NCBI GenBank assembly: GCA_018676855.1 | Contig: JABHDY010000004.1 | Location: 28,972-92,971, forward strand | DNA: 64,000 bases | Origin: Candidatus Woesearchaeota archaeon | GTDB lineage: Archaea; Nanobdellota; Nanobdellia; Woesearchaeales; GW2011-AR9 | Direction of reading: 5' to 3' | Part shown: piece by piece, positions 13,692-43,854 of the stretch | How positions within the stretch are numbered: position 1 is the stretch's first letter | Layout of the letters: every line of letters begins with the position of its first letter | The notes under the pieces: model-generated | The model's database searches: none | The model's input: only the letters and a program-made list of their open reading frames with translations | What the model was told of the DNA's origin: nothing | Program-made: the position numbers and the translations under genes

Positions 13692-13699
13692 TTTTTATA

Positions 13700-17843: not shown

Positions 17844-18830
17844 ATGAGATTCGCTAGATATTTATTGAAAAGGATATTAGTTCTTACAACAATAATAATA
17901 CTTCTTTCAGTTAATTCATTGTCTGAATCTCCTCCCGTATTAACTCATTCAATGGTAGAATTTGGAGATTACAATCCTGAAACGGGAAAAGCTGGCGATT
18001 TTATATTTGATAATTCCATAGTGGATAAAGTTTTTGAAGAATTTGGTGAAGAAGCTTATGATGGATTTGGAGGAACAAAAACATTACCACATTATACATT
18101 CTTTTTGTCATTAGATGCAAGAATTTATGCGCCAACTGATGGTGAAGTGGTAATGCTTACATATCAAGAAGATTGGAACGATTATGAGATTCTTGTTGGT
18201 CCAACGTCATTAAGCGATTGGAAACTTAATTATGATCATATTAGAAATGTCCCTGGACACATTGTTGAAGGATACATGATTCAAGCAGGTGAGTATATCG
18301 GAACTCCGGGAGTTTGGTACATGGACGTAGGATTCATTGAACTTACAATAATGAAAGATCTCAATAATGGATTTAATGAAAATTATTGTCCATATGATTT
18401 TTTTACTCCTGAACTTAAAGTATCATTTTCCCAGGGTTTGAATAACTTAATGACAGATTGGGAATCTTATAATAATGATATGACTATTTACGATGAAGAA
18501 AGTTATGTGTCTCCAGGATGTTTTGAGAATACAGTTGAAGAAAAGATATTTTCCGGAGAAAGTGATGGTGCAGTAAATGATGGCGTTGAAGATACTGCAT
18601 TTGAGAGTATATATGGATGTTATGATAATGATTGTAAAATGCAAGAAATACGTGATAATTGGCCTCAACAATGTCCAATCGGACAAGTACAGATTAATAA
18701 TAATTGTATTGATACGGGATTAAGAGAAGACGATGTTGAAGGATTGTATGACGTTTTAGATGTTTGGAATGATAACCAATTAAACTTATTACAGAAAATG
18801 TCTATGGTTGCATTTATTTTAAAAGATTAA
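17844..18830 (+). CDS. Secreted protein carrying the conserved C-terminal helical motif shared with the giant surface proteins.
   Basis: The signal peptide starts at ATG 17844 (MRFARYLLKRILVLTTIIILLSVNSLSES). The track ORF starts at 17736 and would overlap the upstream gene. The C-terminus reads ...GLYDVLDVWNDNQLNLLQKMSMVAFILKD. Confidence 0.6.
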   Translation: MRFARYLLKRILVLTTIIILLSVNSLSESPPVLTHSMVEFGDYNPETGKAGDFIFDNSIVDKVFEEFGEEAYDGFGGTKTLPHYTFFLSLDARIYAPTDGEVVMLTYQEDWNDYEILVGPTSLSDWKLNYDHIRNVPGHIVEGYMIQAGEYIGTPGVWYMDVGFIELTIMKDLNNGFNENYCPYDFFTPELKVSFSQGLNNLMTDWESYNNDMTIYDEESYVSPGCFENTVEEKIFSGESDGAVNDGVEDTAFESIYGCYDNDCKMQEIRDNWPQQCPIGQVQINNNCIDTGLREDDVEGLYDVLDVWNDNQLNLLQKMSMVAFILKD

Positions 18831-21820
18831 ACAGAATGTTGCGTACCACCAAGTTCAGTGTACGCTTGTTCAATTTCTTTATCGTTCCATGTTGTTTGAT
18901 CATGTAATACTTTTTGTATACCTTCATCAGAAACGCCCATTGCTCTTTCTTTAGATATCCATTCTTTCAGTTCATCAAAGTTTGACGCACCACCACGAGA
19001 TTTGAGGAAGTGGATAACAATAAATATAATAATTACCAAGATAATGAATGCGCCGCCACCAATAATGTAATATTTGTAATCGTCCCAAATTTTTACTGTT
19101 GAAACTGGTTCCTGAACTGAAGGTTGTGTAGGTTGCACGTACGGTGGTTGCATCTGTTGCGATATTGAAGCTGGTGCTGGACCAGGAACAACCGTTTGTG
19201 AACATGATTTTGAAAGTGTTGGTTTTAACGATGTTACGCCACAACTATGTTCATCAACACACGTTCTTTGCTGTTGACCTGCACCACATGTTGACCATGC
19301 TGAACATACCCATGATTGTGTACATGCTTCACATGAACGATTTTCTATACGTTGTGTTCTTCTTCCTCTTGAATCTGTACATGTACGTACTTGTTCCAAT
19401 GATGCGTCACAATATTCCCATGTTGAACAAGCCCAACTAGAACTACGTCGAGTACTTCCGCCAGTACTTGGACTTCCACTATCTCCAGCTTCTTGTATTA
19501 CAGTTGGATCAACAGGAGGAACGCATACATTTTCTGTACATACCTCACCTTCAAGAGTACAATCAGTATCTGCTTCACACTCTTCAGGTATTTTACACAA
19601 GTTAACTACACATTCTTCTTCTGGAATTACACACTCAGCATTTGTTGAACATAAAACGTCTTCAGTACACACACTTGGTTCACCGGTACATGTCCAACCA
19701 GTTTCAAGTGTACATGTTGCTGAACAACCATCATCAGCATCTTCATTACCATCATCGCACGCTTCGCCAGTTTCTTCAACATCATTTCCGCATACTGCTT
19801 CACTTCCTGGATCAATTGATGCAATGCATGCACCATCAGAACAACCATTTTCACATAACACAGGATCTTCTAAGTAAGGACCAGTACATATTTGTAACGC
19901 AGAATCTAAATAACATGTATCTTCTGTACATGGAGATTTACATATTTCATCTACACAGACATTATTTGTATCTTCACAAGGAACTTCATCTGAACATGAT
20001 TCAGGAACAAAACAAGCAACTGCACAATCTGAATCGTCACAGTCAACGTTTCCATCACCATCATCATCTAATTCGTCATCGCAGACAGTTTCAGTTACAG
20101 GAGCAACTGAACAAATACCTGCACCATGACACGTTTCACCATCTGCACAATCTTGAGGAGTTGCTAAATATTCGTTCGTACATGCCCTTGACGCAGACGC
20201 ACCATAACATATATTTTCTTCACATGAGACTCTACATTTACCTGCAACACACGTATCTTCACCACAATCATCATCTGATGTACATTCTGTTTCTTGGAAA
20301 CAAGCAACAGCGTCAGAACAATCACTATCATCACAATCAGTAGTACCATCAAGATCATTATCAGTTTCATCATCACAGACAGATTCAAACTGAGAACATA
20401 TTCCTGCACCGTGACATGTTTCACCATCTGCACAATTTTCAGGAGCTGATAAATAATCGCCTGAACAAACGCTTGACGCCGATTCACTATAACATGCATT
20501 TGCTACGCATGGAGTAAGGCATGTTCCTAAACAAACATCTCCTGCAAGACATTCATCGTTTGATGTACATTCTGTTTCTTCGTAACAAGCTGCATCGCCA
20601 GTACAATCAGTATCTAAACAATCAATATTTCCATCATTATCATTATCAGTTTCATCGTTACATATTTCTGGTGATGGTGGAACAAGACTTTCAACACAAA
20701 ATGAATATGTTGCACAATCACTATCATCACAGTCTACCAAATCGTCATTATCATTATCTTGACCATCTTCACAATGTTCAATATTTGTAAGTCTTCGTTC
20801 TAATAATTCTACATTGCCCAAACTTCCTTCAATTTCGTCAATAAGATTTTTGTAGTCCTCTTCAGATAATTGTAATAGGTTACATTCATTCGCAATTTCT
20901 TTAAATGAATCTGCTTCTTCTCGTAACACATTTAGAAGGAAATTCTTTAACAATGCAGTTTGTGACAGTAACGAATCAATATATTTCGAATCTCGTGGAT
21001 GAATTTCAAGCTGGAACAATTTATCTTTTGATAAATCATGTTCATCTTTCAGACTGTTTAATTTAGTTTGTAATTTATCTTGGTCACATTTGTCTTCATT
21101 TACACAAACATCATTAGTAAAACAGTCTGGGTCAGCACAGTCAATTAAACTATCATCATCATTATCAATTTCATTTGTACATGTTTTTTCAACATCACGC
21201 ACAATGACAAACGTATCGCCTACTGAACGTGCAAGGTCTCGCGGATTTTCTTCAAATGAAGTAATGTTAAATTCTGTTAGTGATAAGTTATACCAACCAG
21301 GACCCGCATTTTCAACGTTTAAATTTCCTATTTCAAACGTACCACTTTGAAGATTTTGATAATCAATAGTTGCATGTTCAAATTCAACAATAGTATTTTG
21401 ACATGAAACTGTTTTAAAATCGTCTGACCACTCAAGTGAACTTGTTACAGACTCATCACAAGTGTCAGAACCTAGACCTTCATGTTCCAATATAAACCGG
21501 ACAGCTGACGTTTCATCTCCAACAACAAGGTTGGCTTTAATTGGTATAGTAGCATCATCGCCCCTATACAAAACATTATCTTCCAAAAATAAACCTACCT
21601 TTGGAAGTGATAGTGGCGTAATTTCAGCAGGCTGAATTGCTTTTCCCACAAACGTATCTGTAAAGAACAAGAACATTGAAATTGCAATAAGTAACACTAC
21701 AGTAATGATAGCAATAATGTACGGTTTCCGTATCTCTCCCCGTTCTGCAAGTGGGTGAGGTTCCCAACTATGTGGAGGAAGTTTCTTGTACCGTTTCTTT
21801 ACCGTTTTTTGTTGTATCAT
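18827..21820 (-). CDS. Giant Cys/Asp-rich type I membrane surface protein, 997 aa. It has a cohesin-like N-domain, 3 tandem ~90-aa Cys-rich modules, a Myxococcus-type Cys repeat, TSP1-like repeats, a C-terminal TM helix and a cytoplasmic tail.
   Basis: The N-terminus has a basic stretch, a TM helix and the motif FFTDTFVGKAI. Repeated CDDETDNDxDGxxDCDDSDC...CADGETCHGAGICS modules are present. A Myxococcus-type repeat reads CGNDVEETGEACDDGNEDADDGCSATC. A TSR-like segment reads CSAWSTCGAGQQQRTC. The TM helix near the C-terminus reads YYIIGGGAFIILVIIIFIVIHF. Confidence 0.8.
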   Translation of the reverse strand: MIQQKTVKKRYKKLPPHSWEPHPLAERGEIRKPYIIAIITVVLLIAISMFLFFTDTFVGKAIQPAEITPLSLPKVGLFLEDNVLYRGDDATIPIKANLVVGDETSAVRFILEHEGLGSDTCDESVTSSLEWSDDFKTVSCQNTIVEFEHATIDYQNLQSGTFEIGNLNVENAGPGWYNLSLTEFNITSFEENPRDLARSVGDTFVIVRDVEKTCTNEIDNDDDSLIDCADPDCFTNDVCVNEDKCDQDKLQTKLNSLKDEHDLSKDKLFQLEIHPRDSKYIDSLLSQTALLKNFLLNVLREEADSFKEIANECNLLQLSEEDYKNLIDEIEGSLGNVELLERRLTNIEHCEDGQDNDNDDLVDCDDSDCATYSFCVESLVPPSPEICNDETDNDNDGNIDCLDTDCTGDAACYEETECTSNDECLAGDVCLGTCLTPCVANACYSESASSVCSGDYLSAPENCADGETCHGAGICSQFESVCDDETDNDLDGTTDCDDSDCSDAVACFQETECTSDDDCGEDTCVAGKCRVSCEENICYGASASRACTNEYLATPQDCADGETCHGAGICSVAPVTETVCDDELDDDGDGNVDCDDSDCAVACFVPESCSDEVPCEDTNNVCVDEICKSPCTEDTCYLDSALQICTGPYLEDPVLCENGCSDGACIASIDPGSEAVCGNDVEETGEACDDGNEDADDGCSATCTLETGWTCTGEPSVCTEDVLCSTNAECVIPEEECVVNLCKIPEECEADTDCTLEGEVCTENVCVPPVDPTVIQEAGDSGSPSTGGSTRRSSSWACSTWEYCDASLEQVRTCTDSRGRRTQRIENRSCEACTQSWVCSAWSTCGAGQQQRTCVDEHSCGVTSLKPTLSKSCSQTVVPGPAPASISQQMQPPYVQPTQPSVQEPVSTVKIWDDYKYYIIGGGAFIILVIIIFIVIHFLKSRGGASNFDELKEWISKERAMGVSDEGIQKVLHDQTTWNDKEIEQAYTELGGTQHSV
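19840..20660 (-). repeat. Three tandem ~270-nt intragenic repeats encoding the Cys-rich CxDExDNDxDG...CADGETCHGAGICS module.
   Basis: The protein-level repeats ...CNDETDNDNDGNIDCLDTDC..., ...CDDETDNDLDGTTDCDDSDC... and ...CDDELDDDGDGNVDCDDSDC... are each followed by a near-identical CADGETCHGAGICS. Nucleotide similarity between copies is visible. Confidence 0.6.
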
Positions 21821-24393
21821 TGTTCTTGAGTTTGAGCATATTCTGAAAGATAATATGCAATCTTAGTTAATTTAATAATCATTGAATCGTCTGATTTAAG
21901 TGTTGTATACACATTTTCAAGGAATTGTTTCTGATCTGAATCTTCTACTATAAGGACTGTAAGAGTTTCTGTTCCAAGTTCAATATCTTGTAATGCCACC
22001 ATTGGCGATTCTGAACATGAAGAATAATCCGTTATGGTTGGCCAACCATCAGGACATGATTGAATTGTATCGAAAAAGTTTCCACTTCCCATATTTTCTG
22101 AAGACCCTGGTGGAAATGTTGCACTAGGAGGGCAGGAAACGTCATCATTTGTATTGTCACAAAAAGTATTCCCATCAAATGAGTTGCCTGTTGTTCGTTC
22201 AAGTTTTACACCAAACATGTTATTGATAAAATTATTTCCTTCCAATATATTGTCAATACTAATGTAATCTTCAGAACCAGGAGTACCCTCCGGCCTGTCC
22301 CATGAAATAAATGCACCGTTGATAAAACCACTGACTTTACAGTTCTTTACAGTAACTGAAGATGCAAGTTGTAAACTTATTCCAGTACCCCTTTCACCAG
22401 GACCAGTAATTGAATGGCCCTGACAATCAATGACGATATTGTCTGCATCCGGTTCAAAACATCTATTATTATCATCCAAGTCTGTAACATCCAAATCTTT
22501 TGTTACTTTGTATACTGTTCCTTCTTCCCATCCATTTCTAGGAGTACAACTATCAAGAAGAACAATTTCTGAAGATTCTAATACGAAAAATTCTTTAAGT
22601 TCAATTGAAAGTCCGTCAATCAAATCTTGTGTTCTTACACTATCTTGTAATCTTTTGTACATCCGTGCAAGAAGATAATTCTCACCTTTTTCATTATCTA
22701 TTTCAACAAAACGAGTGTATTCCCCATTAATAATTGTCCAACCATCTTCAATTTGGCAGATATCACTACATCCATCATTATTTTCAGTGTTACCATCATC
22801 ACACTGTTCTGTACCTTCACGGATACTATTCCCACATACAAATTCTTGACATGTACCTTCACGACAGCCTGACAACCCTTCACATATATTATCTGTTTTT
22901 TCAAGTTGTAACAAATCATTACATGAATATGTTACTTGTGCACTATTATCATCTGAACAATGGCTCGTTATAAAACCAGAATCAGACGTTCCATCAACAG
23001 TACGAGTATATCGTATTTGACCAGGCGTATCTGTCTCTTGACATATTGCTGGCATTTCACATTGTAAATCATATCCACAATAATATCCATCAGGACATTC
23101 AACACCGTTACATAAAGATTTCAGTTCACAACCATTTTCTATTGAATTGTCAGCATTTTCCCAACCAGTACGACACGAACAAAGGCCGTCAATTAATGTC
23201 ATATGATCACTACATGGAGTGTCGTCACACACATTTCCTTCACCATCATTATCACTATCTTCTTGAAGAATATTTTCCTGTTGAGGACAATTATCTTCTG
23301 AATCCTGAACTCCATCATTATCGCTATCAACGACACATCTTCCATTATCTATACACATTGTATCTGTAGGACATGATTCTAAATCTCCCCAGAATAGTTC
23401 GTCATCAAACGTTTTACACGTTTGAAATAATGTAATATCATCGCCTGAAACGCACCGTTTCTGAGCAAATTCTGTACACTCTTCTGTTCCGACAAATTGT
23501 GCAATGTTAAGACAAATAGCATTTTCTGTACAGTCATCATCGTTACAGTCTGTCCAACCGTCACCATCATTATCTTGGAGATCATTACATAGAATTTCAA
23601 TAACTTCTGGAACTTCTAAAGTGCACGTTGACGAACAACCATCACCATCAACTGTATTTCCATCATCACATTCTTCAAGAGCTTCTGTAACACCATTACT
23701 ACATAGTGCATCTGAAGGACCTTCTTCATCTGCAGCTGCCAAAACAGTAACAGTAGTTTCTATTGGTGAAACTAAACTTTGAGCAGAAGGATTGTTTAAA
23801 TCATACATAGTAAAGGAAGTAAACTCAAAATTTATAGGAACACTTTCGGTAGGTTCTTCATCAACCATTACAGTGATATATCCTAAATCCATTTTTCCTG
23901 AAATTGCATTTCCACAATCATTTGTTTCAGAACATAGGCCAGCAAACGTAACAGAGATAGTATCGTCAGTAGATTTAATATAATTAACAATAGTAAGATC
24001 GATACCCTCCCTTTCATAAAAGAAATTATCATGAACAGGTTCAATAATTCTAGAATAGTCAACTTTTGTTGAATCATAATCGTGTTTTAACGCAAACTGA
24101 AAAGCAACAGATTTTTTTCCTACTGGTAAAGAAACTTGAATAGGAATAGTATATTCTGTCACGCCAGGTTCAACTTCTATCGTACCGCCTAAAACTGCAG
24201 CTTTTCCAACACCAACTTCGGTAGTGAACTCGATAGCTTTTCCAACAAACGTGTCTGTGAAGAATAATAATCCCGCTAAACCTAGAAGTAAAACAACTGT
24301 AATAGCTGCTATGATTAAAGGTTTTTTATTTTTACCAGTACTTTGAGATACTGTTTTTGGGGTTCCCCGTGACACGTTCTGTTTTATTTTCAT
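21817..24393 (-). CDS. Giant secreted Cys-rich surface protein, 858 aa. It has a cohesin-like N-domain, Myxococcus-type Cys repeats, TSP type-3-like Ca-binding repeats, a parallel beta-helix and the conserved C-terminal helical motif.
   Basis: The N-terminal motif reads KKPLIIAAITVVLLLGLAGLLFFTDTFVGKAI. Myxococcus-type repeats include CDDGNTVDGDGCSSTC and CDDGNTENNDGCSDIC. The TSP3-like repeat reads DSDNDGVQDSEDNCPQ...DSDNDGEGNVCDD. The beta-helix repeats include NCKVSGFINGAFIS...GNNFINNMFGVKL...GNSFDGNTFCDN. The C-terminal motif reads ...FLENVYTTLKSDDSMIIKLTKIAYYLSEYAQ. It overlaps the downstream gene by 4 nt. Confidence 0.8.
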   Translation of the reverse strand: MKIKQNVSRGTPKTVSQSTGKNKKPLIIAAITVVLLLGLAGLLFFTDTFVGKAIEFTTEVGVGKAAVLGGTIEVEPGVTEYTIPIQVSLPVGKKSVAFQFALKHDYDSTKVDYSRIIEPVHDNFFYEREGIDLTIVNYIKSTDDTISVTFAGLCSETNDCGNAISGKMDLGYITVMVDEEPTESVPINFEFTSFTMYDLNNPSAQSLVSPIETTVTVLAAADEEGPSDALCSNGVTEALEECDDGNTVDGDGCSSTCTLEVPEVIEILCNDLQDNDGDGWTDCNDDDCTENAICLNIAQFVGTEECTEFAQKRCVSGDDITLFQTCKTFDDELFWGDLESCPTDTMCIDNGRCVVDSDNDGVQDSEDNCPQQENILQEDSDNDGEGNVCDDTPCSDHMTLIDGLCSCRTGWENADNSIENGCELKSLCNGVECPDGYYCGYDLQCEMPAICQETDTPGQIRYTRTVDGTSDSGFITSHCSDDNSAQVTYSCNDLLQLEKTDNICEGLSGCREGTCQEFVCGNSIREGTEQCDDGNTENNDGCSDICQIEDGWTIINGEYTRFVEIDNEKGENYLLARMYKRLQDSVRTQDLIDGLSIELKEFFVLESSEIVLLDSCTPRNGWEEGTVYKVTKDLDVTDLDDNNRCFEPDADNIVIDCQGHSITGPGERGTGISLQLASSVTVKNCKVSGFINGAFISWDRPEGTPGSEDYISIDNILEGNNFINNMFGVKLERTTGNSFDGNTFCDNTNDDVSCPPSATFPPGSSENMGSGNFFDTIQSCPDGWPTITDYSSCSESPMVALQDIELGTETLTVLIVEDSDQKQFLENVYTTLKSDDSMIIKLTKIAYYLSEYAQTQEQ

Positions 24394-24408
24394 TTCAAAT
24401 TATTATAA

Positions 24409-25311
24409 TTATGACCAAGTATGCTCACGCAATATTTGTGCAATTGCAGATATTTTTTGAAGGACATTATTTTCTTCCTCTTTTAAAACAGAATAAATTC
24501 TATTTAATAAATCCTGTTCGGCCACATCACCATCTTCAAATACCATTCCTAGTTTGCATACACCATCAACATTTACTTCTTTTGTTCCGCATTCAGTAGA
24601 TGTAGGTTGAGGTTCGCCTGCAGGAGGAACAACTTCTATATCTACACATTCTCCGCCAACTGCATTACATTCTTGATCAGAAGGACAACCAGTAGGAGCT
24701 ATACGTTCATTTCCTGGACACCTATTACCAGCAGTACATTCAGAAGCATCAAATGCATTACAAACAGGAGCAACTTCTATATCTACACACTGACCAACAC
24801 TACATTCTTGACCAGAAGGACAACCAGTAGCAGGAATAACAACATTATCTGGACATAGCCAGCCATCTGTACATTCAGTTACAGGTAATGCGGTACATGT
24901 TGGAGTTACAGACTCAACTTGAACCACAGGGAAAGAAGCTTCCTCTTGACCTGCTGCAGTATTAGCTTGAATTCCAGTAATTGCTAATGTAAAAGATGCA
25001 GAAGCGTCAAAGTTTAATGTTCCTGTAAATGTATCTGGAGACAAAGCAAATACTCCAATTGCAGGAGGGGACTGAGTTAAGTCACTAATATCAATAAATG
25101 GACTAAAACTTACTGAACTTAATGTTGCAGAACCAGAACTTACTGTTGCACTAAAACCTGAAATAGATGTCGTTCCAGAACTTATTTCACAAGCAACCGG
25201 ACCCCCACCATCTGGAACAGTTCCACAATTTACTGTGAAGTCGACAGCAAACGCAGAACTAACTAAAAGTAATGCAACCAACAAATAAATTTTATATCTT
25301 TTTATCATCAT
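24409..25311 (-). CDS. Secreted Cys-rich protein, 300 aa, with two tandem Cys modules and the conserved C-terminal helical motif.
   Basis: It has a classical signal peptide (MMIKRYKIYLLVALLLVSSAFA). Two ~45-aa repeats read TxCxxxxxxECTxGxxCPxN...GCPSxQEC...CVDIEV. The C-terminus reads DLLNRIYSVLKEEENNVLQKISAIAQILREHTWS. Confidence 0.7.
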   Translation of the reverse strand: MMIKRYKIYLLVALLLVSSAFAVDFTVNCGTVPDGGGPVACEISSGTTSISGFSATVSSGSATLSSVSFSPFIDISDLTQSPPAIGVFALSPDTFTGTLNFDASASFTLAITGIQANTAAGQEEASFPVVQVESVTPTCTALPVTECTDGWLCPDNVVIPATGCPSGQECSVGQCVDIEVAPVCNAFDASECTAGNRCPGNERIAPTGCPSDQECNAVGGECVDIEVVPPAGEPQPTSTECGTKEVNVDGVCKLGMVFEDGDVAEQDLLNRIYSVLKEEENNVLQKISAIAQILREHTWS

Positions 25312-25323
25312 TTTTCACCTCTA

Positions 25324-26409
25324 TTAAGAGCAACTATTTATTGTAAATCCAGGCACACCAAATGAAACACGAGCAATTAAAATAGCATCATCTAATGAAA
25401 CGGTCCCTGAACAATCAGCGTCCGAATTTGCTGAATCTTGTAGTGAATATCCAGGCACGCCAAATGAAACACGGGCAACTAAGATCGCATCAGCAAGATT
25501 TAGAGTTCCATCACCATCTGCATCACCTAATACAATATTGGATGGTGCAACATTACCACTCCAACTTGTCTGACTTCGTGCAACATCACACATTTTAAGT
25601 GGATCTTGTGGATATACATCTTGATCAGTATAACAAACACCGCCAATTAAACAAGTATTTGCATTAAGTGGATACGTACACGTTTCATCAGTACAAACAT
25701 CAGTTGTACATGACAATCCATCATTACAATCAGTATCTGCTCTACATTCTACACCAGGTTCAGGAACGTCAGGTTCAGGAACAGCAACACTTTCAACAAT
25801 AATTGTTGGACTAACAATACCCGTATCGAGAATCATATCAATAGGAGGTTGTGCAACATTATAAACATCAAATTTTGTAAATGTTAAATCATACTCACCC
25901 GTTACACTTTCCTGAAAAGTAATAGTAGCGATAGTAAATAAACCAGTTTTTTCATTTAGAGGATCAAATGTTGCTGAATCAAAACTAATTATACCATCAG
26001 CGCATGAAATATCTAATAAGTCTGTCCAACCTAAATCAGAAACTACTGAACTACTACACTCGGTTGACAAATCTAAACCATTAAGGTGAAGATCAAAAGA
26101 TACTGCAACAGTTTCAACATCAACGGGCAATTTAGCTTGTACTATAAGATCAAACTCATCATCAACAGTAACAGTATTATCTACCAAAAATATTCCTGCT
26201 GTATTATCAGTAATAGTACCTTCCAATTGAAAACTGATAGCCTTTCCTACAAACGTATCTGAGAAAAATAGTAATGAACCCAGTGCAACAAGTGCTACGA
26301 TAGTAATAATGCCAATAAGTAACGGTTTATTAACCTCTTTTTTATTTGAAACCTGATTTTGAGTTCTTTTTGAAACGTTTTTCTTCACCATTTTTATCCT
26401 CCCTCTCAA
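25324..26409 (-). CDS. Membrane-anchored surface protein, 361 aa, with a cohesin-like N-domain and a C-terminal two-repeat dockerin domain.
   Basis: The N-terminal motif reads NKPLLIGIITIVALVALGSLLFFSDTFVGKAI. The cohesin-like segment reads FLVDNTVTVDDEFDLIVQAKLPVDVETVAVSFDLHLNGLDLS. The C-terminus reads GDADGDGTLNLADAILVARVSFGVPG ... NSDADCSGTVSLDDAILIARVSFGVPG. These are two EF-hand-like DxDxDGxxNxxD loops, each followed by a helix, which is the canonical dockerin repeat architecture. Confidence 0.75.
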   Translation of the reverse strand: MRGRIKMVKKNVSKRTQNQVSNKKEVNKPLLIGIITIVALVALGSLLFFSDTFVGKAISFQLEGTITDNTAGIFLVDNTVTVDDEFDLIVQAKLPVDVETVAVSFDLHLNGLDLSTECSSSVVSDLGWTDLLDISCADGIISFDSATFDPLNEKTGLFTIATITFQESVTGEYDLTFTKFDVYNVAQPPIDMILDTGIVSPTIIVESVAVPEPDVPEPGVECRADTDCNDGLSCTTDVCTDETCTYPLNANTCLIGGVCYTDQDVYPQDPLKMCDVARSQTSWSGNVAPSNIVLGDADGDGTLNLADAILVARVSFGVPGYSLQDSANSDADCSGTVSLDDAILIARVSFGVPGFTINSCS

Positions 26410-28703
26410 TTACGTAGCACGTACGCTATCTCTGACATTTTCTGTAATAAATTATTATCATTATTCCATATAGTTACTATTTCATTTAATAAATTGGTAT
26501 TATCTTCTGATGCCCCCGTATCTACACAAACACCATTAACATATAATTCTCCAGTTACACATTCTTCAGGCCACTCTACTGTAGCTTCAGGAATAGGAGC
26601 AGGTTCTGGTTCGACAATACAAGACGTATCAGCAACACAATCACTATCAGCACAATCAACTAAACTATCACCATCATTGTCAATACTATCTGTACAAATT
26701 TCAATTGGAGACGTACCAACACAAACTCCGGCAGAACAATGATCACCAGTTGTACTTGGATCATTATCTGAACAATACAAAGCATCATTATTAGTCCATG
26801 CAGCAGTATCAGATTCAGGGTTACATTGTTGACATTGGTTAGCTGGATTAAGATTATTTCTTATCTGACAAACGCCATCTATCAAACATCGGTTTGCACT
26901 AATTGGATATGTACATGTTCCCTCTACACAAACATTATCTGTACAGGAGATACTATCATCACAATCTGTATTTGTTGTACATTCAGGAATATCTTCAGCA
27001 GGAGCAGGTTCTTCGGTTAAACATAAAGATGAACAACCGTCATTATCAATAAGATTACCATCGTCACATTCTTCATTACCATTAATAAGAGAATCACCAC
27101 AAGATTCTGCAAGTAAACAATCTCCATATCCTAAACATTCATTTCCACAGTTTTGTATACCATTATAACCATTAACTTCACAGTTTATACTACCATCATC
27201 ACAAAATTCACCTTCTTCAATTATTGAATTACCACAAACTGCAGTTGGTTCTGGTTCTGGAGGCGCAGGCTCCGGTTCTTCCTCAGGTTCAGCAGGAGGA
27301 ACTGGTTCAGGCTCCTCTTCAGGTTGAGGAGCAGAAAATAAAGGTGTACCGAACGCTAACAATTTACCTTCGTCACCGCCTGCAACATATAAAATATCAT
27401 CGTTTGCTAAAAGTGATGGTGATGTACTTGGATTATGATTAATTGTACTTGGAACACTCCAAAGAGTATTTTTCCATGGCGTACCTGGATATGTAGGCGG
27501 TCCACCTTTAAGAGCAACAACTTTATCCGTACGAGAAATGTAAATTGTACCATCTAATGCAACTAATGGAGCTGCGTAAATTGGTGTGCTAGAAGAATAA
27601 TGATAATCACTATCTGTAGGAGTAAATATTATCTGACTATGTTTTCCAGGAAGAAATGCAATAGTTCCAAAATATAATTTTTTATCAGTACCAGCAGAAG
27701 CAAGGTACAGTTTCGCAGATGTCGTAGTGGTATCAACAACAACAGCTTCAGATATAAACGATGCGCCAGGTACCATTACAGGTCCAACATTTTGGTTAGT
27801 CGGTCTTGAAATGAATAACATACCACCAGAACGTGCTTGTTCAAAAAAGTATATTTGTTCATTAACAGTTCCAATAATAACTAAATTGTAATCATTCACT
27901 CCAGCTACTGTAGAAGAATAAACTGTTATAGGTGCCACTACATTTGAATCGAGAGAGATTATATGATGAATTCCTTGAGTTCCCGCTGTAACCAAAGTCA
28001 TGTCATCTATGTTAATAGAATATAATTCTCTACTATTTGGCATTTGTACTACAAAAATGAGATAATCGCCATTACTTGAAGGAGATATTGCAGGCGTAGA
28101 AGATACAAAACCGCTCGTACCATACGCCACATCTGTATATGTAACAGGATATCCAGGAACTGGATACACATTAATTTTATGGACGCCCCTTGTTGATCCA
28201 ACAATAAATGTATCACCATACATAACAATAGATGTCGTAGGATTAATTGCCCCATGACTTAACGCTATATCAAGCGCGTCACAATTTCCTACTGCTGAAC
28301 GATCAGATAATCCAACAATCCTAACAATTCCATTTTCTAAAGGTACAAACAAATTATCTTCCTCTGCATGATGTGCAGGACTACCAATAACTTTGTCAGC
28401 ACGAATAAAACAACTGTTTATACTATCACCCGTGCTTGGGTTTATAGTATGAAGGTATGAACCCGTTTCATCATTTGTTATAAGATATGTAGCATCGCCA
28501 ACAACGAACGGTGCAATGTCTGCAGATCCAGAAGAATAAGTTTGTTCCCAAAGAAGAGTTGTATCTCCAGCGATAGGACCAACATCAATAGCCTTTCCAA
28601 AAACGCCTTCTTTAATTGATGGAAATAATACAAATAATGCAACTAACAAAACAACTGCTACTACCCCTAATATCACTACAATTTTACGACTATTAGCATT
28701 CAT
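26406..28703 (-). CDS. Giant surface protein, 765 aa. It has an N-terminal TM anchor, a beta-propeller-like repeat region, a PEPEP linker, Cys-rich Myxococcus-type and CxDxxDNDGD modules, and the conserved C-terminal helical motif.
   Basis: The anchor reads MNANSRKIVVILGVVAVVLLVALFVLFPSIKEGVFGKAI. The linker reads PEEEPEPVPPAEPEEEPEPAPPEPEP. Cys modules include CGDSLINGNEECDDGNLIDNDGCSSLC and CTDSIDNDGDSLVDCADSDC. The C-terminus reads NLLNEIVTIWNNDNNLLQKMSEIAYVLRN. Confidence 0.8.
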   Translation of the reverse strand: MNANSRKIVVILGVVAVVLLVALFVLFPSIKEGVFGKAIDVGPIAGDTTLLWEQTYSSGSADIAPFVVGDATYLITNDETGSYLHTINPSTGDSINSCFIRADKVIGSPAHHAEEDNLFVPLENGIVRIVGLSDRSAVGNCDALDIALSHGAINPTTSIVMYGDTFIVGSTRGVHKINVYPVPGYPVTYTDVAYGTSGFVSSTPAISPSSNGDYLIFVVQMPNSRELYSINIDDMTLVTAGTQGIHHIISLDSNVVAPITVYSSTVAGVNDYNLVIIGTVNEQIYFFEQARSGGMLFISRPTNQNVGPVMVPGASFISEAVVVDTTTTSAKLYLASAGTDKKLYFGTIAFLPGKHSQIIFTPTDSDYHYSSSTPIYAAPLVALDGTIYISRTDKVVALKGGPPTYPGTPWKNTLWSVPSTINHNPSTSPSLLANDDILYVAGGDEGKLLAFGTPLFSAPQPEEEPEPVPPAEPEEEPEPAPPEPEPTAVCGNSIIEEGEFCDDGSINCEVNGYNGIQNCGNECLGYGDCLLAESCGDSLINGNEECDDGNLIDNDGCSSLCLTEEPAPAEDIPECTTNTDCDDSISCTDNVCVEGTCTYPISANRCLIDGVCQIRNNLNPANQCQQCNPESDTAAWTNNDALYCSDNDPSTTGDHCSAGVCVGTSPIEICTDSIDNDGDSLVDCADSDCVADTSCIVEPEPAPIPEATVEWPEECVTGELYVNGVCVDTGASEDNTNLLNEIVTIWNNDNNLLQKMSEIAYVLRN

Positions 28704-28803
28704 TAATCTAGTTCACCTTTTTTTAGTATAAAGAATACCTTTTCGTTTATATACCTATCGATTTTCTACGTGTATAAAAAAGTTAAAAAAAAGCGGTTAA
28801 CTC

Positions 28804-29727
28804 TTAAGGAGAATACTGATTTCCTGAACCATTATTACCTTTAGAACGTGACCTAAAAAAGAACACAAGGATAAGTATTGCAACAAGTAATAAAATAATG
28901 CCGGCAACATAATACCATGTGGAAACACCTTCTGAAACGTCTTTATCGTCTTCAACTACGTCCCTCGTAGTAGAAGGAATTACTGATGGAGCAGTTCTTC
29001 CCGAAACTGTACCGCACACTTTCGTTTCTGCAGGTTGTGGAAATTGTGTAACTGAACTAATGGTTCCAGCAGACAACTGTGCATCACAATCGTCTGATCT
29101 TTGACATGAACGTGTTTGTATTTCATTTGAACATGAACTCCACGACGTACAGTCCCATACATACACACATGCAGGAAGGGTTTGCGGTTGATCAGGCAGT
29201 GTACCCGCCACGCACGTTTTCTGTTCAGTTTTTGTTAACTCATCAGTATCACATTCGTTAACATCGGTACATGTACGTGTTTGTGTTGCAGCAACACAAG
29301 ATAACCATTCGTCACAGTCCCATCGTTGATCACATGTAATGACTGATGATGAAGTACTAACGTCATGCCGCGTTACACCCCACGATTCATATTCAAGAGT
29401 ATCAATAAGTGTATCGTCAACATAAAAAGCAATGGTATTACCATCTTCACCATGTACACGAAGGTAATTAGTAACATCATTTCCGTACTTTCCCGTGCAC
29501 GGATTTGTATCGCACGTTACAATAGAAATTGATGAGGAATATTCAACACCGTTAACAGACGCAACCACATTTTCTGGAACGTCAGAATCTAAGTCCCACG
29601 TTACACGACCATAAAACTGATGATGTTCGATTGACGGTGGTTCTGCCGCAATTACCATTACGGGAACAAGAAGTGTACATAATAATATCCACAATAATAT
29701 GTTCAGTTTCATTCTACAAATACCCAA
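28804..29727 (-). CDS. Type I membrane protein, 307 aa, with thrombospondin type-1-like (WxC...WSxC...QTRxC) repeats and a C-terminal TM helix.
   Basis: The signal reads MKLNILLWILLCTLLVPVMVIAA. The repeats read CDQRWDCDEWLSCVAATQTRTCTDVNEC and CVYVWDCTSWSSCSNEIQTRSCQRSDDC. The TM helix reads YYVAGIILLLVAILILVFFF, followed by a basic/Gly tail. Confidence 0.7.
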   Translation of the reverse strand: MGICRMKLNILLWILLCTLLVPVMVIAAEPPSIEHHQFYGRVTWDLDSDVPENVVASVNGVEYSSSISIVTCDTNPCTGKYGNDVTNYLRVHGEDGNTIAFYVDDTLIDTLEYESWGVTRHDVSTSSSVITCDQRWDCDEWLSCVAATQTRTCTDVNECDTDELTKTEQKTCVAGTLPDQPQTLPACVYVWDCTSWSSCSNEIQTRSCQRSDDCDAQLSAGTISSVTQFPQPAETKVCGTVSGRTAPSVIPSTTRDVVEDDKDVSEGVSTWYYVAGIILLLVAILILVFFFRSRSKGNNGSGNQYSP

Positions 29728-34000: not shown

Positions 34001-34681
34001 TTCATAAATACCAAAAAAGTTAGAATCACAAACATGCCATTGATTTTCTGAACATAAAAATTTGTTACCTACATCCGATGGAAGATTTTGATAGATTCCC
34101 GGAATTTGTGTGTCGTCACATTCAACAGTAATTGTTGCATGTACATCTGGATCAATGTTATTAGAGACACAAAGTTCTTTTTTAGTAGATACATACTTAG
34201 AAAACAAAGAGCCAACACTATAACAGTATGTTCCAGAAGTTAAAGAAGAAGCTTGATATTCTTCAAATGTCATCTGTGGCTTTGGACCAATGCAAAAATC
34301 GCCTCGTTGTGGACAACAATATCCAGGCGCAGTTCCCCCAGATGCTAAATTAACTCCATCACCATCAATGGCATTTTGAAGAGTATATTTATGTGTTTTT
34401 TCAATACCTCTTTGAGAACAAGAATCTTCACCAAAAACAGCTTCAACAACAGCCAATGGTTCATTAGTACTTCCCCAATAATCCCCTACTGGTGCAGGTT
34501 GTCCCGCTTGCCATATAGCCTGACCAACAACCCCATCTTTAACAAATGGATACAGAACAGCAACTGCAACTACTAAAACAATTAAACCAACCCATAATGC
34601 AGTAAGTTTCTTTTTATGTTCAGAATGATGCTCACTAGGAGAAGAACGTTTCAGTTTAGCACTATCTTTTTTAACCATCAA
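31049..34681 (-). CDS. Giant secreted or membrane-anchored protein, 1210 aa, function unknown.
   Basis: The N-terminal TM helix reads LTALWVGLIVLVVAVAVLYPFVKDGVVGQAI, sharing the G-x-A-[IV] junction. An N-terminal Cys-rich segment reads CxxNxxHVCD.. repeated. The rest is a long beta-rich body with no recognised motif. Confidence 0.8.
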   Translation of the reverse strand: MMVKKDSAKLKRSSPSEHHSEHKKKLTALWVGLIVLVVAVAVLYPFVKDGVVGQAIWQAGQPAPVGDYWGSTNEPLAVVEAVFGEDSCSQRGIEKTHKYTLQNAIDGDGVNLASGGTAPGYCCPQRGDFCIGPKPQMTFEEYQASSLTSGTYCYSVGSLFSKYVSTKKELCVSNNIDPDVHATITVECDDTQIPGIYQNLPSDVGNKFLCSENQWHVCDSNFFGIYEDDNSYFCDATQWHVCDDSVSSMFCKNNKWLFDVPKEEFENPQGIFNGFVLEGIGVLPNGGSTAADPVDIIEKQGYFGFLSITTQKSFFRYGDTIFQIKMANPTEAGAVTLSVSSAGPAFDITLTVDPEDKYAFSQEQFPLDLDGDTITDAYLSVLLASPYLDKSILFSVTTVIDFDQTNMAWTGVLLSDNSQTFVSNGVEHTMGVFGDESDVIFTIDGRSFGGSTATTDVTPNPIVGNFFGGNFFIDEQETEEIFFVARPIVVGDGGVIFRLTKTQEEIRIGTTVGEDQVDLAQTYEESFSKDIILDVATNNLGFVSVCSNDPPVLSALTVCDRESQILNIQNKKASTLENVLFWYEQPAPDQTKEGSVLYRRDVTDIQNEFATIFATNMVAGKRMALSYEGHDYVIRMNSLSNYLDLTTLKLRDITEPGFPEYVAEGDQSEVVFNLPLGKQINIKLDLEPELNYDFSAKTTTTKQVDLENEFETYISTYSQVDILNFRDSEAYRKIKIDPSDINILKDIMQINYNGVLVELNFSDAKPNFEHNGKVLFYYSDFTNGGISGALNTFNKYAHVFFYSNLRNGPYTHEFTDTNFILPLVKGKRLAFGLDDQYYLLTYADPWTGTEAEGFELSKMRITNVDGSNPIAPTMSGLDLVFDLGERRIEAKVQTGDVREITFTGISLSDVTSELELAAISTGTFSPRENFSATLLAGVNGQRNNIQIGSNTYEICDSAAAATLVDFVGLCSSNEIDLTLDRDVLYSSYISGVLVQYHGKNTEGQKVVTFKHTMNLTDDHTETFDWLAITDNLQNNRNPAIFWEDTWFELEGSQTLDTFQLVELPRASSFSTIQMNTTTSEAEGREAGTIVFDNGVLAFQKKFVGESEDFRIDLDIEPLQRSLLTLIGFNVTEEQQPTSFMTNIDGHVYSLSVDESPSISDFVKVTITEEGKLIYVSNLPVDEERHVLLSNGNVVKIHVLDADIPTIHIQK

Positions 34682-34758
34682 TACACACTCTTTTATTGTA
34701 GAGAACTAATTTGTTTCTCTTTATATACTTTACTATTACACGAACGTAATAGAATTGA

Positions 34759-35883
34759 CTATCGTGACCGAGAAGGAGATGCAGATTCTTTCTTAAGGTA
34801 CGCAACTATAGACATTTTTTCTAACAAACTTTGTGAACTTTTTTTCCACATAGAATTTATTGAAGTGAGAAGTGTATCGTCGGTAACACGGACATCAATA
34901 CAACGCGTATTTTCTTTAATGGGTAATTTTCCAACGTCACAATTTTCAAACTTACACATTGGATCTCGTAAACATGCAACATCATCACAGTCAACTTTAC
35001 CATTACCATCATTATCTATTCTATCACCACATTTTTCAAAAACTAAACATTCAGAAGATCCCGTTACTGCCCAACAGATAGAATTTCTCACTATCTTCCG
35101 CGCATCAGTATTATACAATTCCCATTTATAATCGTCCATAAAGAATCCAAGATGAACAAACTTGCCAGGATTTCTACCAAAATCTGTAACGCCACTCTCT
35201 AACGCAAAACCTGAAATTGAGGAAGGTAATGCCCTTGACTCTGCAGTCGAACCAGAATGTGAATTTCCAGGACCAAACAACGCAACATATTCGGTTTCAT
35301 AAATGTTATTCGTATTAATGTACCCAACATAAAGAGGTTTACGAGTTGCTTGTAATCTCACTTCGTCGCTAAATTCTTTCATGATATCGTGCGTAGTATC
35401 AACTGAACCGATAGACGTTTTAAAATTGTCATCAGCGCCCACACCGTTCGTTATTTCTAAAGAACTAGAAGTATATGCACGATGCGCAACACTAATTATA
35501 GGTACACCATTATTCCTGTACGCTTCTTTAAGTATATTATCTCTTACTTTAAGTACATTTGAACATGCCAGATAATGACCAGCACAAACAACAGCACTAT
35601 ACCCATTAAATGAAGTAACTTTTCCACCACCTAATGCATACAATTCGCCGCCAACGAGGTACATACGGGTAACATCAAACCCTTCATCAACCAAATATTC
35701 TCGTATATAATCTGTATATGTACATCCCTGATTATAACAAATAAAAGCAAGATTGATTTGTCCTCCCCGTGAAACGGCCATACCAGTGACATTATTAGAA
35801 AAAGAAAAAAAGATGAAAGAGAAAGCAATAACTGTGATTGCTATACCTACAACTAACCAAATGCGGTTTCTATCAACACTCAT
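34759..35883 (-). CDS. Membrane-anchored surface protein, 374 aa, with a CxDxxDNDGxGxxDC module and the conserved C-terminal helical motif; the first gene of the cluster.
   Basis: The N-terminal TM helix reads RIWLVVGIAITVIAFSFIFFSF. The Cys module reads CGDRIDNDGNGKVDCDDVAC. The C-terminus reads TLLTSINSMWKKSSQSLLEKMSIVAYLKKE followed by an 8-aa tail. Confidence 0.7.
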   Translation of the reverse strand: MSVDRNRIWLVVGIAITVIAFSFIFFSFSNNVTGMAVSRGGQINLAFICYNQGCTYTDYIREYLVDEGFDVTRMYLVGGELYALGGGKVTSFNGYSAVVCAGHYLACSNVLKVRDNILKEAYRNNGVPIISVAHRAYTSSSLEITNGVGADDNFKTSIGSVDTTHDIMKEFSDEVRLQATRKPLYVGYINTNNIYETEYVALFGPGNSHSGSTAESRALPSSISGFALESGVTDFGRNPGKFVHLGFFMDDYKWELYNTDARKIVRNSICWAVTGSSECLVFEKCGDRIDNDGNGKVDCDDVACLRDPMCKFENCDVGKLPIKENTRCIDVRVTDDTLLTSINSMWKKSSQSLLEKMSIVAYLKKESASPSRSR

Positions 35884-36127: not shown

Positions 36128-36514
36128 TTATTCAACATTACTTTGTCGATGAATTCGACCAAAGTATGGTACTGCAACAACGTAATCTTCGCCAAAGCCA
36201 GCAATATCGCCGTCAATTGCATCGCACGTTTTTCGCAGTTTAGAAATTGCACGTTTTAATTCAACAAGATCTTTGTCTTTAAGAGGCTTGATATTTATCA
36301 ATGCAACTGTTGACCCTTCACGAAGAACGTCAAGAACCTCTTTAATATCTTCAAACTCTTCCATTACGAATGGTCGTACAAGAACCTTAGACCGGTCCTC
36401 TTTCTGTGACTCTGAATCGAGTTCTACATACTCTTCTGGCTGCTGTTCAAGGTTTTCCTCCTCGTCCATTGGCCGAGCAAATTTGTCTTTTAATTGTAAA
36501 AAAAAATCCTTCAT
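36128..36514 (-). CDS. sepF: Cell division protein SepF (FtsZ-interacting, DUF552).
   Basis: The C-terminal domain reads VRPFVMEEFEDIKEVLDVLREGSTVALINIKPLKDKDLVELKRAISKLRKTCDAIDGDIAGFGEDYVVAVP. This matches the SepF core (E..EDxxxIxxxLRxGxxVxLNLxxLD...RxxDFLxGxxYALDGxIxxIxxxVxLxxP). The N-terminal region is acidic. Confidence 0.75.
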   Translation of the reverse strand: MKDFFLQLKDKFARPMDEEENLEQQPEEYVELDSESQKEDRSKVLVRPFVMEEFEDIKEVLDVLREGSTVALINIKPLKDKDLVELKRAISKLRKTCDAIDGDIAGFGEDYVVAVPYFGRIHRQSNVE

Positions 36515-43795: not shown

Positions 43796-43854
43796 GAGTA
43801 ACTTCGTCGCAATGTTTTTATACTCCATTCTATTAATCGTCACTGAGGCTATAG

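What the first reader, a model, noticed from the sequence alone, without database searches (positions are those of the whole stretch)
18741..34880. Novel conserved C-terminal helical tag (LLxKMSxIAYxL) shared by five secreted proteins.
Five proteins end with a ~30-aa predicted amphipathic helix that is clearly homologous. The 17844..18830 product ends NDNQLNLLQKMSMVAFILKD. The 26406..28703 product ends NNDNNLLQKMSEIAYVLRN. The 24409..25311 product ends ENNVLQKISAIAQILREHTWS. The 34759..35883 product ends SQSLLEKMSIVAYLKKE. The 21817..24393 product ends SMIIKLTKIAYYLSEYAQ. It is not a TM segment, not PGF-CTERM and not a dockerin. Proteins lacking it in the operon instead end in a TM helix (18827..21820 and 28804..29727). 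This suggests the tag is an alternative anchoring, docking or sorting signal. I do not recognise it as a described motif.
Basis: seen in the sequence. Interest (0 to 1): 0.8.

Follow-up and report, generated by a model that had tools for sequence, protein, structure and literature searches.

The report
New C-terminal module on archaeal surface proteins
Five otherwise different secreted proteins, encoded in one gene cluster of a tiny uncultured archaeon (Woesearchaeota), all end in the same ~55-residue mini-domain that matches nothing described; it most likely clips these proteins together or onto the cell surface, but it has so far been seen in only two or three related organisms.

Summary
Five ORFs in an 18-kb cluster (window 17.8-35.9 kb; Ca. 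Woesearchaeota MAG GCA_018669175.1) end in a homologous module. It is about 55 aa: a Cys-x10-12-Cys beta-hairpin in 4 of 5, then an acidic turn, then helix 1 (LxxIYxxL/W), a polar loop and helix 2 (LQK[MI][ST]x[IV]AxxL[KR]).

- **Statistics.** Leave-one-out HMMs recover every copy (E 2e-17 to 4e-5).
- **Age.** The copies are old. Synonymous sites are scrambled and no shared nucleotide run exceeds 17 nt.
- **Conservation.** The module is kept in the syntenic orthologue of a distant relative, where a flanking gene is only 44% identical.
- **Structure.** AlphaFold2 gives a confident beta-hairpin plus helical hairpin (pLDDT 83).
- **Known families.** There is no match in Pfam, NCBIfam, PDB sequences or PDB folds. 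It is not a TM segment, PGF-CTERM or dockerin.
- **Distribution.** It is very narrow. An exhaustive HMM search of 1.84 billion proteins found one other lineage. All five copies lie in the one cluster, which also encodes a true dockerin and membrane-anchored proteins.

Best reading (about 45%): an autonomous protein-protein docking or oligomerisation module that assembles a surface complex. The function is inferred, not shown. This is a genuine new domain family of modest general reach.

The parts
18657..18827 (+). C-terminal module (57 aa, NWPQQC...AFILKD) of the 328-aa secreted protein 17844..18830. That protein has a classical signal peptide and a weak M23-like body.
   Evidence: Leave-one-out E 2.7e-13. 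P0001 matched at residues 272-328.
21820..21996 (-). Most divergent C-terminal module (59 aa, ...VEDSDQKQFLENVYTTLKSDDSMIIKLTKIAYYLSEYAQTQEQ), lacking the Cys hairpin. It belongs to the 858-aa protein 21817..24393, which has an N-terminal leader, Cys-rich repeats and a beta-helix.
   Evidence: Leave-one-out domain at residues 815-853, i-E 4.4e-5. Body domains.
24412..24606 (-). C-terminal module (65 aa, PTSTEC...AQILREHTWS) of the small 300-aa secreted protein 24409..25311, behind a Pro-rich linker.
   Evidence: Leave-one-out E 7e-13. Orthologues P0006 and P0009 keep the module. Secondary structure in the full-length AF2 model: E244-253, H262-276, H282-298.
26409..26576 (-). C-terminal module (56 aa, EWPEEC...AYVLRN) of the 765-aa protein 26406..28703, behind a Pro/Glu-rich linker and an acidic double-disulfide repeat.
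   Evidence: Leave-one-out E 2e-17. AF2 model of this tail: pLDDT 82.6, E10-13, E16-19, H24-37, H43-55.
34762..34953 (-). C-terminal module (64 aa, KFENC...AYLKKESASPSRSR) of the 374-aa protein 34759..35883. This is the only basic copy (net charge +3).
   Evidence: Leave-one-out E 5.3e-9. The protein is identical in 41 collection blocks.
17844..35883 (.). The gene cluster that holds all five tag genes plus five tag-less surface proteins. Most genes are on the minus strand, with 4-nt start/stop overlaps at 21817/21820, 26406/26409 and 31049/31052. 17844..18830 is convergent on the plus strand.
   Evidence: ORF list. HMM scan shows no tags elsewhere. All-against-all BLAST shows module shuffling.
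25327..25539 (-). Dockerin-like double repeat (GDADGDGTLNLADAILVARVSFG / SDADCSGTVSLDDAILIARVSFG) at the C-terminus of the tag-less protein 25324..26409.
   Evidence: PF00404 E 0.012 for the window copy and 2.1e-9 for the L001/L003 orthologues. Precomputed Dockerin_1 (weak) on the L003-L007 orthologues.
18827..21820 (-). Tag-less 997-aa protein. It has the shared N-terminal leader, five acidic double-disulfide repeats, a C-terminal TM helix and a conserved ~70-aa cytoplasmic tail. It is a candidate membrane anchor of the complex.
   Evidence: The C-terminal 215 aa are 34% identical to the L003 346-aa TM protein (E 1.7e-29).
28804..29727 (-). Tag-less 307-aa protein with a signal peptide, W/C-rich repeats, a C-terminal TM helix and a short basic tail.

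Best explanation
The tag is an autonomous, folded ~55-residue C-terminal protein-protein interaction module. It consists of a disulfide-stapled beta-hairpin packed against a helix-loop-helix. It hangs on flexible linkers at the end of five secreted modular proteins. It works as a non-covalent docking or oligomerisation handle: it binds either other copies of itself (a helical bundle) or a receptor surface on a membrane-anchored protein of the same cluster. The soluble subunits are the 24409 and 17844 products, which have only a cleavable signal peptide. Through the tag they would be held in a multi-protein cell-surface assembly together with the dockerin-bearing and TM-anchored subunits.

**Shown:** homology, strict C-terminal position, age and purifying selection, conservation in an orthologous syntenic cluster, predicted fold, and absence from known families.

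**Inferred:** that it binds protein, what it binds, and that it is retained on the mature protein.
For: 1. **Modular and portable.** The five bodies are unrelated: an M23-like domain, a beta-propeller-like region with Cys repeats, a small beta-rich protein, an unknown domain and a beta-helix. The tag is always the last element, 0-11 residues from the stop.
2. **Tethered by linkers.** It sits behind Pro/Glu- or Gly/Ser-rich linkers in g26406, g24409, P0006 and P0009.
3. **Folds on its own.** AF2 on the tail alone gives pLDDT 82.6, and all five models are within 2 units.
4. **Purifying selection on old copies.** Helix 2 shows 21-64% aa identity between the window's five copies, with third-codon-position identity of 0.14-0.57. 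No shared run exceeds 17 nt.
5. **Kept in a distant relative.** The tag is the best-conserved part of the orthologue: 37-40% identity against 25% for the N-domain. The genomes are far apart, with a flanking OB-fold gene only 44% identical. Gene order is the same: dockerin protein, then tag protein, then leader-domain protein, then TM protein.
6. **Conservation all round helix 2.** The hydrophobic positions (L44, M/I47, I/V50, A51, L54) and the polar positions (Q45 5/7, K46 7/7, S/T48 7/7) are both conserved. This is expected if one face packs internally and another meets a partner.
7. **Confined to one cluster.** All five copies lie in a cluster that also encodes a bona fide docking module, a dockerin, and TM-anchored proteins. 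No copy was found in the other ~63 kb examined. The system looks self-contained.
Against: - No partner was identified, and no complex prediction could be run.
- The relative's 20-kb locus has only one tag-bearing gene. A tag-tag hetero-assembly is therefore not obligatory there.
- Family depth is tiny: 7 sequences from 2-3 lineages. Conservation arguments are thin.
- In three of the five proteins, homology extends upstream into the acidic double-disulfide repeat. The tag may therefore have spread as part of a larger cassette.
Confidence: 0.45

Rival explanations
1. In-plane membrane (or S-layer) anchor. The amphipathic helices lie on the outer face of the cytoplasmic membrane and hold the protein at the cell surface. 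This would resemble the C-terminal amphipathic helices of bacterial low-molecular-weight penicillin-binding proteins.
For: - Both helices are amphipathic, with hydrophobic moment 0.5-0.68 over 11-mers.
- The position is strictly C-terminal.
- Two carriers (17844, 24409) have no other anchor after signal-peptide cleavage.
- Other cluster proteins use a C-terminal TM helix.
Against: - Net charge is -3 to -5 in 4 of 5 tags. That is unfavourable for binding an anionic lipid surface.
- AF2 predicts that the two helices and the disulfide hairpin bury their hydrophobic faces against each other.
- Invariant or near-invariant polar residues (K46, Q45, S/T48) suggest specific recognition rather than bulk lipid affinity.
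- Three carriers already have an N-terminal TM-like leader.
Confidence: 0.15
2. C-terminal sorting or processing signal, or a C-terminal propeptide. A dedicated enzyme or export step recognises the tag and removes it. It might be exchanged for a covalent anchor, or it might act as an intramolecular chaperone for the Cys-rich bodies.
For: - It is always within 0-11 residues of the C-terminus.
- It is shared by cargo of unrelated function, as known C-terminal sorting domains are.
- It has an invariant Lys next to a conserved Gln, which could be a cross-linking or recognition site.
- One cluster member has a weak peptidase M23-like hit (E 0.014).
Against: - No TM segment or basic tail, unlike archaeosortase or sortase signals.
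- No archaeosortase, sortase or other processing enzyme was detected in the cluster.
- All carriers already have N-terminal export signals.
- A 55-aa disulfide-stabilised fold is more than a linear signal needs.
- Residues after helix 2 vary in length from 0 to 11. This speaks against a precise terminal recognition site.
Confidence: 0.15
3. There is no separate function. The tail is a structural cap of the preceding Cys-rich repeat cassette. It spread by module shuffling within a fast-evolving, lineage-specific surface-protein cluster.
For: - BLAST alignments between g17844, g26406 and g34759 run about 95-125 aa. They include the acidic double-disulfide repeat upstream of the tag.
- The family is confined to 2-3 lineages among 1.84 billion representative proteins.
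Against: - g24409, P0006 and P0009 carry the module behind long flexible linkers, without an adjacent acidic repeat.
- g21817 has the helices without the Cys hairpin.
- The motif is maintained despite saturated synonymous divergence, and it is the best-conserved segment in the orthologue.
- It never occurs internally, although the Cys repeats do.
Confidence: 0.15

Closest known systems
Dockerin modules (Pfam PF00404) of cohesin-dockerin assemblies, including non-cellulosomal archaeal ones
   Same: - A small (~55-70 aa) terminal module with two helices.
- Appended through linkers to many unrelated secreted proteins.
- Present in a cluster with surface scaffolds. A real dockerin sits on the neighbouring gene.
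- Proposed role: non-covalent assembly at the cell surface.
   Different: - No DxNxDGxxxxxD calcium-binding loops. The inter-helix loop is only 5-6 residues and lacks acidic residues in P0009.
- No PF00404 hit.
- hhalign probability 0.08% against the cluster's own dockerins.
- It has an N-terminal disulfide beta-hairpin that dockerins lack.
- No cohesin partner was identified. Pfam and PDB sequence searches on the shared N-terminal domain found no cohesin.
Archaeosortase or exosortase C-terminal signals (PGF-CTERM, PEP-CTERM, MYXO-CTERM)
   Same: A strictly C-terminal tag shared by many secreted proteins of one organism. MYXO-CTERM proteins also carry the cysteine-rich acidic repeats seen here (TIGR02232 hits).
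   Different: These signals consist of a short motif, a TM helix and a basic tail. The tag here has no hydrophobic stretch (maximum KD19 0.32), no PGF or PEP motif and no NCBIfam hit.
C-terminal amphipathic-helix membrane anchors (e.g. E. coli PBP5/PBP6). This comparison is from general knowledge.
   Same: An amphipathic helix at the extreme C-terminus of an exported protein that has no TM segment.
   Different: Here there are two helices plus a disulfide hairpin, predicted to fold on themselves. The module is mostly acidic and has conserved polar positions.
Helical-hairpin docking or dimerisation domains and designed coiled coils
   Same: Heptad-like L/I spacing. The only PDB sequence resemblances, both non-significant, are to designed coiled-coil peptides 7bas (E=1) and 8qad (E=2.6). 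Helical-bundle formation between copies is a plausible mode of action.
   Different: There is no significant sequence or structure match. The known helical-hairpin docking domains I am aware of (general knowledge, not checked here) are cytoplasmic, whereas this module is extracellular and disulfide-stapled.

Membership tests
Dockerin type I (PF00404) | Match to the family profile | tested here: not met
   None of the 7 tails hits PF00404 at E <= 10. The cluster's true dockerins do: E 2.1e-9 and 0.012.
Dockerin type I (PF00404) | Two ~22-residue repeats, each with a 12-residue EF-hand-like Ca-binding loop (DxNxDGxxxxxD) followed by a helix | tested here: not met
   The alignment shows a 5-6-residue polar loop between the helices. 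There is no DxNxDG motif, and P0009's loop (NTSHTT) has no acidic residue. hhalign against the operon's dockerins gives probability 0.08%.
PGF-CTERM / archaeosortase-type sorting signal | Signature motif, then a hydrophobic TM helix, then a basic cluster at the C-terminus | tested here: not met
   The maximum Kyte-Doolittle mean over 19 residues is -0.09 to 0.32. There is no PGF motif and no NCBIfam hit on the tail.
PGF-CTERM / archaeosortase-type sorting signal | Archaeosortase gene in the genome | not tested
   Only about 81 kb of the genome was seen. None of the cluster or nearby proteins that were scanned hit such a family.
S-layer homology (SLH) or other described wall/S-layer-binding modules | Match to the Pfam or NCBIfam profile | tested here: not met
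   No Pfam or NCBIfam family covers the tail.
In-plane amphipathic membrane anchor | Amphipathic helix with a cationic or aromatic interfacial face, unfolded until it binds lipid | tested here: inconclusive
   Amphipathicity is met (moment 0.5-0.68). However, net charge is -3 to -5 in 4 of 5 copies, and AF2 predicts a self-packed mini-domain. Lipid binding cannot be tested in silico here.
EF-hand / calcium-binding helix-loop-helix | 12-residue loop with Asp/Asn/Ser ligands at positions 1, 3, 5 and 12 | tested here: not met
   The loop is 5-6 residues. No EF-hand Pfam hit on the tails.

The most novel reading that the evidence does not exclude
The tag is the ligand half of a previously unrecognised, cohesin-independent docking system of DPANN archaea. 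In this reading a disulfide-stapled helical hairpin plugs five different effector proteins into a membrane-anchored scaffold. The scaffold would be the 18827 product, with its conserved cytoplasmic tail. Together they would build the surface organelle with which these ultra-small archaea contact their hosts or substrates. More divergent versions would exist across Woesearchaeota, below the sensitivity of a five-sequence HMM.
Probability: 0.25. Interest if true: 0.65.

Novelty: new variant of a known kind. Interest (0 to 1): 0.42.

Why it matters
Woesearchaeota and other DPANN archaea are uncultured and ultra-small, and are thought to depend on contact with other cells. How their surface proteins are held and organised is almost unknown. 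A portable C-terminal module would give a concrete, testable handle on the assembly of a DPANN surface complex. It is shared by five different secreted proteins in one operon, next to a dockerin and membrane-anchored proteins. It would also add a new small docking module to the protein-engineering toolbox, if binding is confirmed.

The importance is tempered by the very narrow distribution. Only one other lineage was found among 1.84 billion representative proteins. As it stands this is a lineage-specific domain family, not a general archaeal sorting principle.

Tried and rejected
1. **Word-indexed protein searches.** These were nearly blind.
   - The tail alignment gave 2 candidates and no hit.
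   - The N-terminal leader-domain alignment gave one fragment, P0010.
   - Only the full-length g24409/P0006 alignment gave an extra orthologue, P0009.
3. **Hand-made degenerate DNA pattern for LQK[MI][ST]x[IV]AxxL[KR].**
   - GTDB species genomes: 93 matches, of which only the P0009 contig is real.
This result is inconclusive.
   - Viral contigs: none.
   - The pattern had to fix Lys as AAA, so sensitivity is limited.
4. **Degenerate dockerin idea.** I considered that the tag is an internally duplicated 'acidic loop + LLxxIxxI helix', that is, a degenerate dockerin. I rejected it on hhalign (probability 0.08%), loop length and the lack of Pfam hits.
5. **Cohesin idea.** I considered that the shared N-terminal ~140-aa domain of the 18827, 21817 and 25324 products is a cohesin, the natural receptor. 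Neither Pfam nor a PDB profile search supports this, so it remains an impression only.
6. **Full-length AF2 model of the 24409 product.** It was too poor (pLDDT 45) to say whether the tag packs on the body. Only its secondary structure was used.
7. **EF-hand or calcium-loop reading of the inter-helix loop.** Rejected.
8. **Look-ups of strain variants (P0001, P0002, P0004).** These gave only the same species.
Full report
**1. What is in the sequence**

The window is archaeal. It carries ribosomal protein S6e at 16145-16573, FtsZ at 9601-10665 and SepF at 36128-36514, with about 35% G+C. It is part of contig JABIZR010000009.1 of the MAG GCA_018669175.1. NCBI's name for one of its proteins (HOL21_04770) carries the label 'Candidatus Woesearchaeota archaeon'. 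Window position p equals contig position p+28799.

Ten genes lie between 17.8 and 35.9 kb. Nine are on the minus strand, several with 4-nt start/stop overlaps. The 17844..18830 gene is convergent on the plus strand. They encode modular proteins with N-terminal export signals, many with cysteine-rich acidic repeats (TIGR02232, NF033662).

**2. Is it more than chance?**

Yes, on four counts.
- The core [LIVM][LIVM]xK[LIVM][ST]x[LIVM]A occurs five times in all six frames, always 5-13 residues before a stop.
- A back-translated DNA pattern gives 4 matches against 0.01 expected.
- HMMs built without one member retrieve that member at its C-terminus: E 2e-17, 2.7e-13, 7e-13, 5.3e-9 and 4.4e-5. No other ORF segment in the window scores below E 0.01.
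- A five-sequence HMM searched against 1.84 billion representative proteins found an independent member, P0006, at E 3e-5.

**3. Anatomy**

The homologous unit is longer than one '~30-aa helix'. The alignments give this consensus:

C-x10-12-C-[KI]-D-x2-h-x-[DE]-[DE]-x2-6-L-x2-[IV]-[Yh]-x2-[LW]-[KN]-x4-5-h-L-Q-K-[MIL]-[ST]-x-[IV]-A-x-[IVL]-L-[KR]

It is followed by 1-11 variable residues. L30, K46 and A51 (numbering of the 26406 tail) are invariant in 7 of 7 sequences. The two Cys residues are present in 6 of 7. The 21817 product lacks them.

AlphaFold2 on the 56-residue tail with the seven-sequence alignment gives pLDDT 82.6, and all five models score 80.7-82.6. The model has a beta-hairpin at residues 10-19, helix 24-37 and helix 43-55. 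The same secondary structure appears in the otherwise poor full-length model of the 24409 product.

The module is not hydrophobic enough for a membrane span (maximum 19-residue Kyte-Doolittle mean 0.32). It is amphipathic (moment 0.5-0.68). It is acidic in four of the five copies (net -3 to -5) and basic (+3) in the 34759 product.

It is separated from the protein bodies by Pro/Glu-rich or Gly/Ser-rich linkers in the 26406 and 24409 products and in P0006 and P0009.

**4. Not a recent duplication remnant**

- The five bodies are unrelated apart from shuffled Cys-rich repeats.
- At the DNA level, the longest exact match between any two tag regions is 17 nt.
- Among the window's five copies, third-codon-position identity in helix 2 is 0.14-0.57.
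- Roughly half of the identical amino acids use different codons.
- The amino-acid motif has therefore been kept while silent sites were randomised.

**5. Outside this genome**

P0006 (ENA contig, L001) and P0009 (GCA_964594395.1 and several ENA assemblies, L003-L008) are orthologues of the small 24409 protein. They end in ...DCPAGxGLVxGxCKDVVV...TLxxIYxTLK...TLQKITGIAxILKSIF.

Their loci keep the gene order of the window:
- a dockerin-ending protein;
- then the small tag protein;
- then a protein with the shared N-terminal leader domain;
- then a type-I membrane protein whose TM and cytoplasmic tail match the 18827 product (E 1.7e-29).

The same OB-fold gene flanks both clusters and is only 44% identical, so the two organisms are distant. 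In the orthologue pair the tag module is the best-conserved segment: 37-40% identity, against 25% for the N-terminal domain.

Beyond this, the family is strikingly rare.
- The exhaustive search returned only the window's own proteins or strain variants (P0001-P0005), P0006, and one false positive that matches only the Cys hairpin (P0007).
- A degenerate DNA pattern found only the P0009 contig among 185,579 species genomes.
- It found nothing true in a truncated metagenome scan.
- It found nothing in viral contigs.

Sensitivity is limited. P0006 scored only 39.9 bits, so more divergent members would be missed.

Within the source genome, all five copies are in the one cluster. The rest of the window and about 17 kb of extra flank have none.

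**6. Comparison with known families**

- No Pfam or NCBIfam model covers the tail.
- A profile search of PDB sequences gives only non-significant similarity to designed coiled coils (E 1 and 2.6).
- The cluster does contain a genuine dockerin at the end of the 25324..26409 product. PF00404 scores E 0.012 there and 2.1e-9 in the orthologues.
- The tag shows no profile similarity to that dockerin (hhalign probability 0.08%). It lacks the 12-residue calcium loops.
- I suspected the shared N-terminal domain of the 18827, 21817 and 25324 products might be a cohesin. I could not support that.

**7. How it most likely works**

The evidence fits an autonomous docking or oligomerisation module best.
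- It is portable, always terminal and linker-tethered.
- It is predicted to fold by itself.
- It is conserved on both the hydrophobic and the polar faces of helix 2.
- It is confined to a cluster that also uses a dockerin and TM anchors.

Two carriers (the 17844 and 24409 products) have classical cleavable signal peptides and no other means of staying at the cell. That makes a retention role plausible.

I cannot decide whether the tags bundle with each other or bind a receptor in the cluster. The single tag in the relative's locus argues mildly for a receptor or for homo-oligomerisation.

The rivals are less well supported but not excluded:
- an in-plane membrane anchor, disfavoured by the acidic charge and the self-packed model;
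- a cleaved sorting signal or propeptide, disfavoured by the lack of a TM segment or processing enzyme and by the variable terminal extension;
- a functionless cap carried along with the Cys repeat cassette, disfavoured by selection and by linker-separated copies.

**8. Context**

Non-cellulosomal cohesin and dockerin modules on archaeal surface proteins are known. They have been proposed to mediate cell-cell or multi-protein assemblies (PMC9012536 and references 166-168 therein). The present module would be an additional, unrelated handle in such a system.

**9. Verdict**

This is a real new domain family of very narrow known distribution. In kind it is a new variant of the known class of terminal docking or anchoring modules. 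Interest is moderate.

Noticed in passing
window 25327-25539 (-); L001 ~1560-1780; L003 ~9760-9983: The tag-less protein 25324..26409 ends in a two-repeat dockerin (GDADGDGTLNLADAILVARVSFG / SDADCSGTVSLDDAILIARVSFG). PF00404 scores E 0.012 here and 2e-9 in the orthologues. The cluster therefore already uses one known docking system.
   Followed up: partly
window: N-termini of 18827..21820, 21817..24393, 25324..26409 (-); L004 6425-7114; L001 2651-3139: These proteins share an N-terminal leader. It has a long K/R-rich stretch, in some copies a conserved 'HPLAxxGE[IV]xK', then a TM-like helix, then 'LLFFxDxFVG[KQ]A[IY]' and a ~140-aa beta-rich domain. A related [VAT]G[KQM]A[IVY] motif follows the N-terminal hydrophobic segment in 26406, 29709, 31049, 34759 and 13972 as well. 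By eye the domain looks cohesin-like, but Pfam and PDB profile searches give nothing. Whether the leader is cleaved is unknown.
   Followed up: partly
window 18827-~19060 (-); L003 ~13540-13759: A conserved ~70-aa cytoplasmic tail follows the C-terminal TM helix of the 997-aa protein: (F/H)xELKxWIxKERAxGxSDxxIxxxLxDQTxWxxxEIxxAxxEL. It is shared with the 346-aa TM protein of the relative (34% identity over 215 aa, E 1.7e-29). A conserved intracellular domain on a surface scaffold hints at signalling or cytoskeletal coupling.
   Followed up: no
window 24409-25311 (-) versus L002 261-1019 (P0002): A strain variant of the small tag protein lacks 48 residues, one copy of an internal Cys-containing repeat (252 against 300 aa). 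P0001 differs from the 17844 product by one residue. The exact 24409 product (P0008) was found on only 5 contigs. The 34759 product and the housekeeping genes are identical in 41-48 collection blocks. Several contigs end inside the cluster. This suggests strain-level variability or an assembly-breaking repeat region in the middle of the cluster.
   Followed up: partly
window 26406-28703 (-); L219 6505-8903: In the gene calls listed for the NCBI contig (L219), this gene is a 456-aa product with a ~1-kb gap upstream. The window has an uninterrupted 765-aa ORF, and a 765-aa protein (P0003) is on record elsewhere. The start is probably under-called in that record.
   Followed up: no
window 18827-21820, 28804-29727 (-); P0006/P0009 mid-region: There are repeats of the form CxxW(S/x)xCxxxxxQxRxCxDxxxC. 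By eye they recall thrombospondin type-1 repeats. The acidic double-disulfide repeat of the 34759 product gives a weak PDB sequence hit to the teneurin-4 Cys-rich region (7plp, E 0.0013).
   Followed up: no
window 41501-46071 (+): A T2SSE-family secretion ATPase (PF00437, E 1.6e-16; 764 aa, unusually long) is followed by a 738-aa polytopic membrane protein with no Pfam hit. By gene order this looks like a type IV filament/archaellum-like assembly pair. It lies about 6 kb from the surface-protein cluster.
   Followed up: no
window 53866-56682 (-), 57956-61415 (+): There are further large surface proteins. One is a 938-aa protein dense in N-x-S/T sequons, with Big_3_3 and Big_13 domains and a C-terminal TM helix. 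Two others have PKD- or cadherin-like repeats. None carries the tag.
   Followed up: no
L056 / L004 (CAZQLW010000001.1, GCA_964594395.1): The record title calls this MAG 'uncultured Methanosarcinales archaeon'. Yet it carries the syntenic Woesearchaeota-type surface cluster and a flanking OB-fold gene 44% identical to the window's. The taxonomic label looks doubtful.
   Followed up: no
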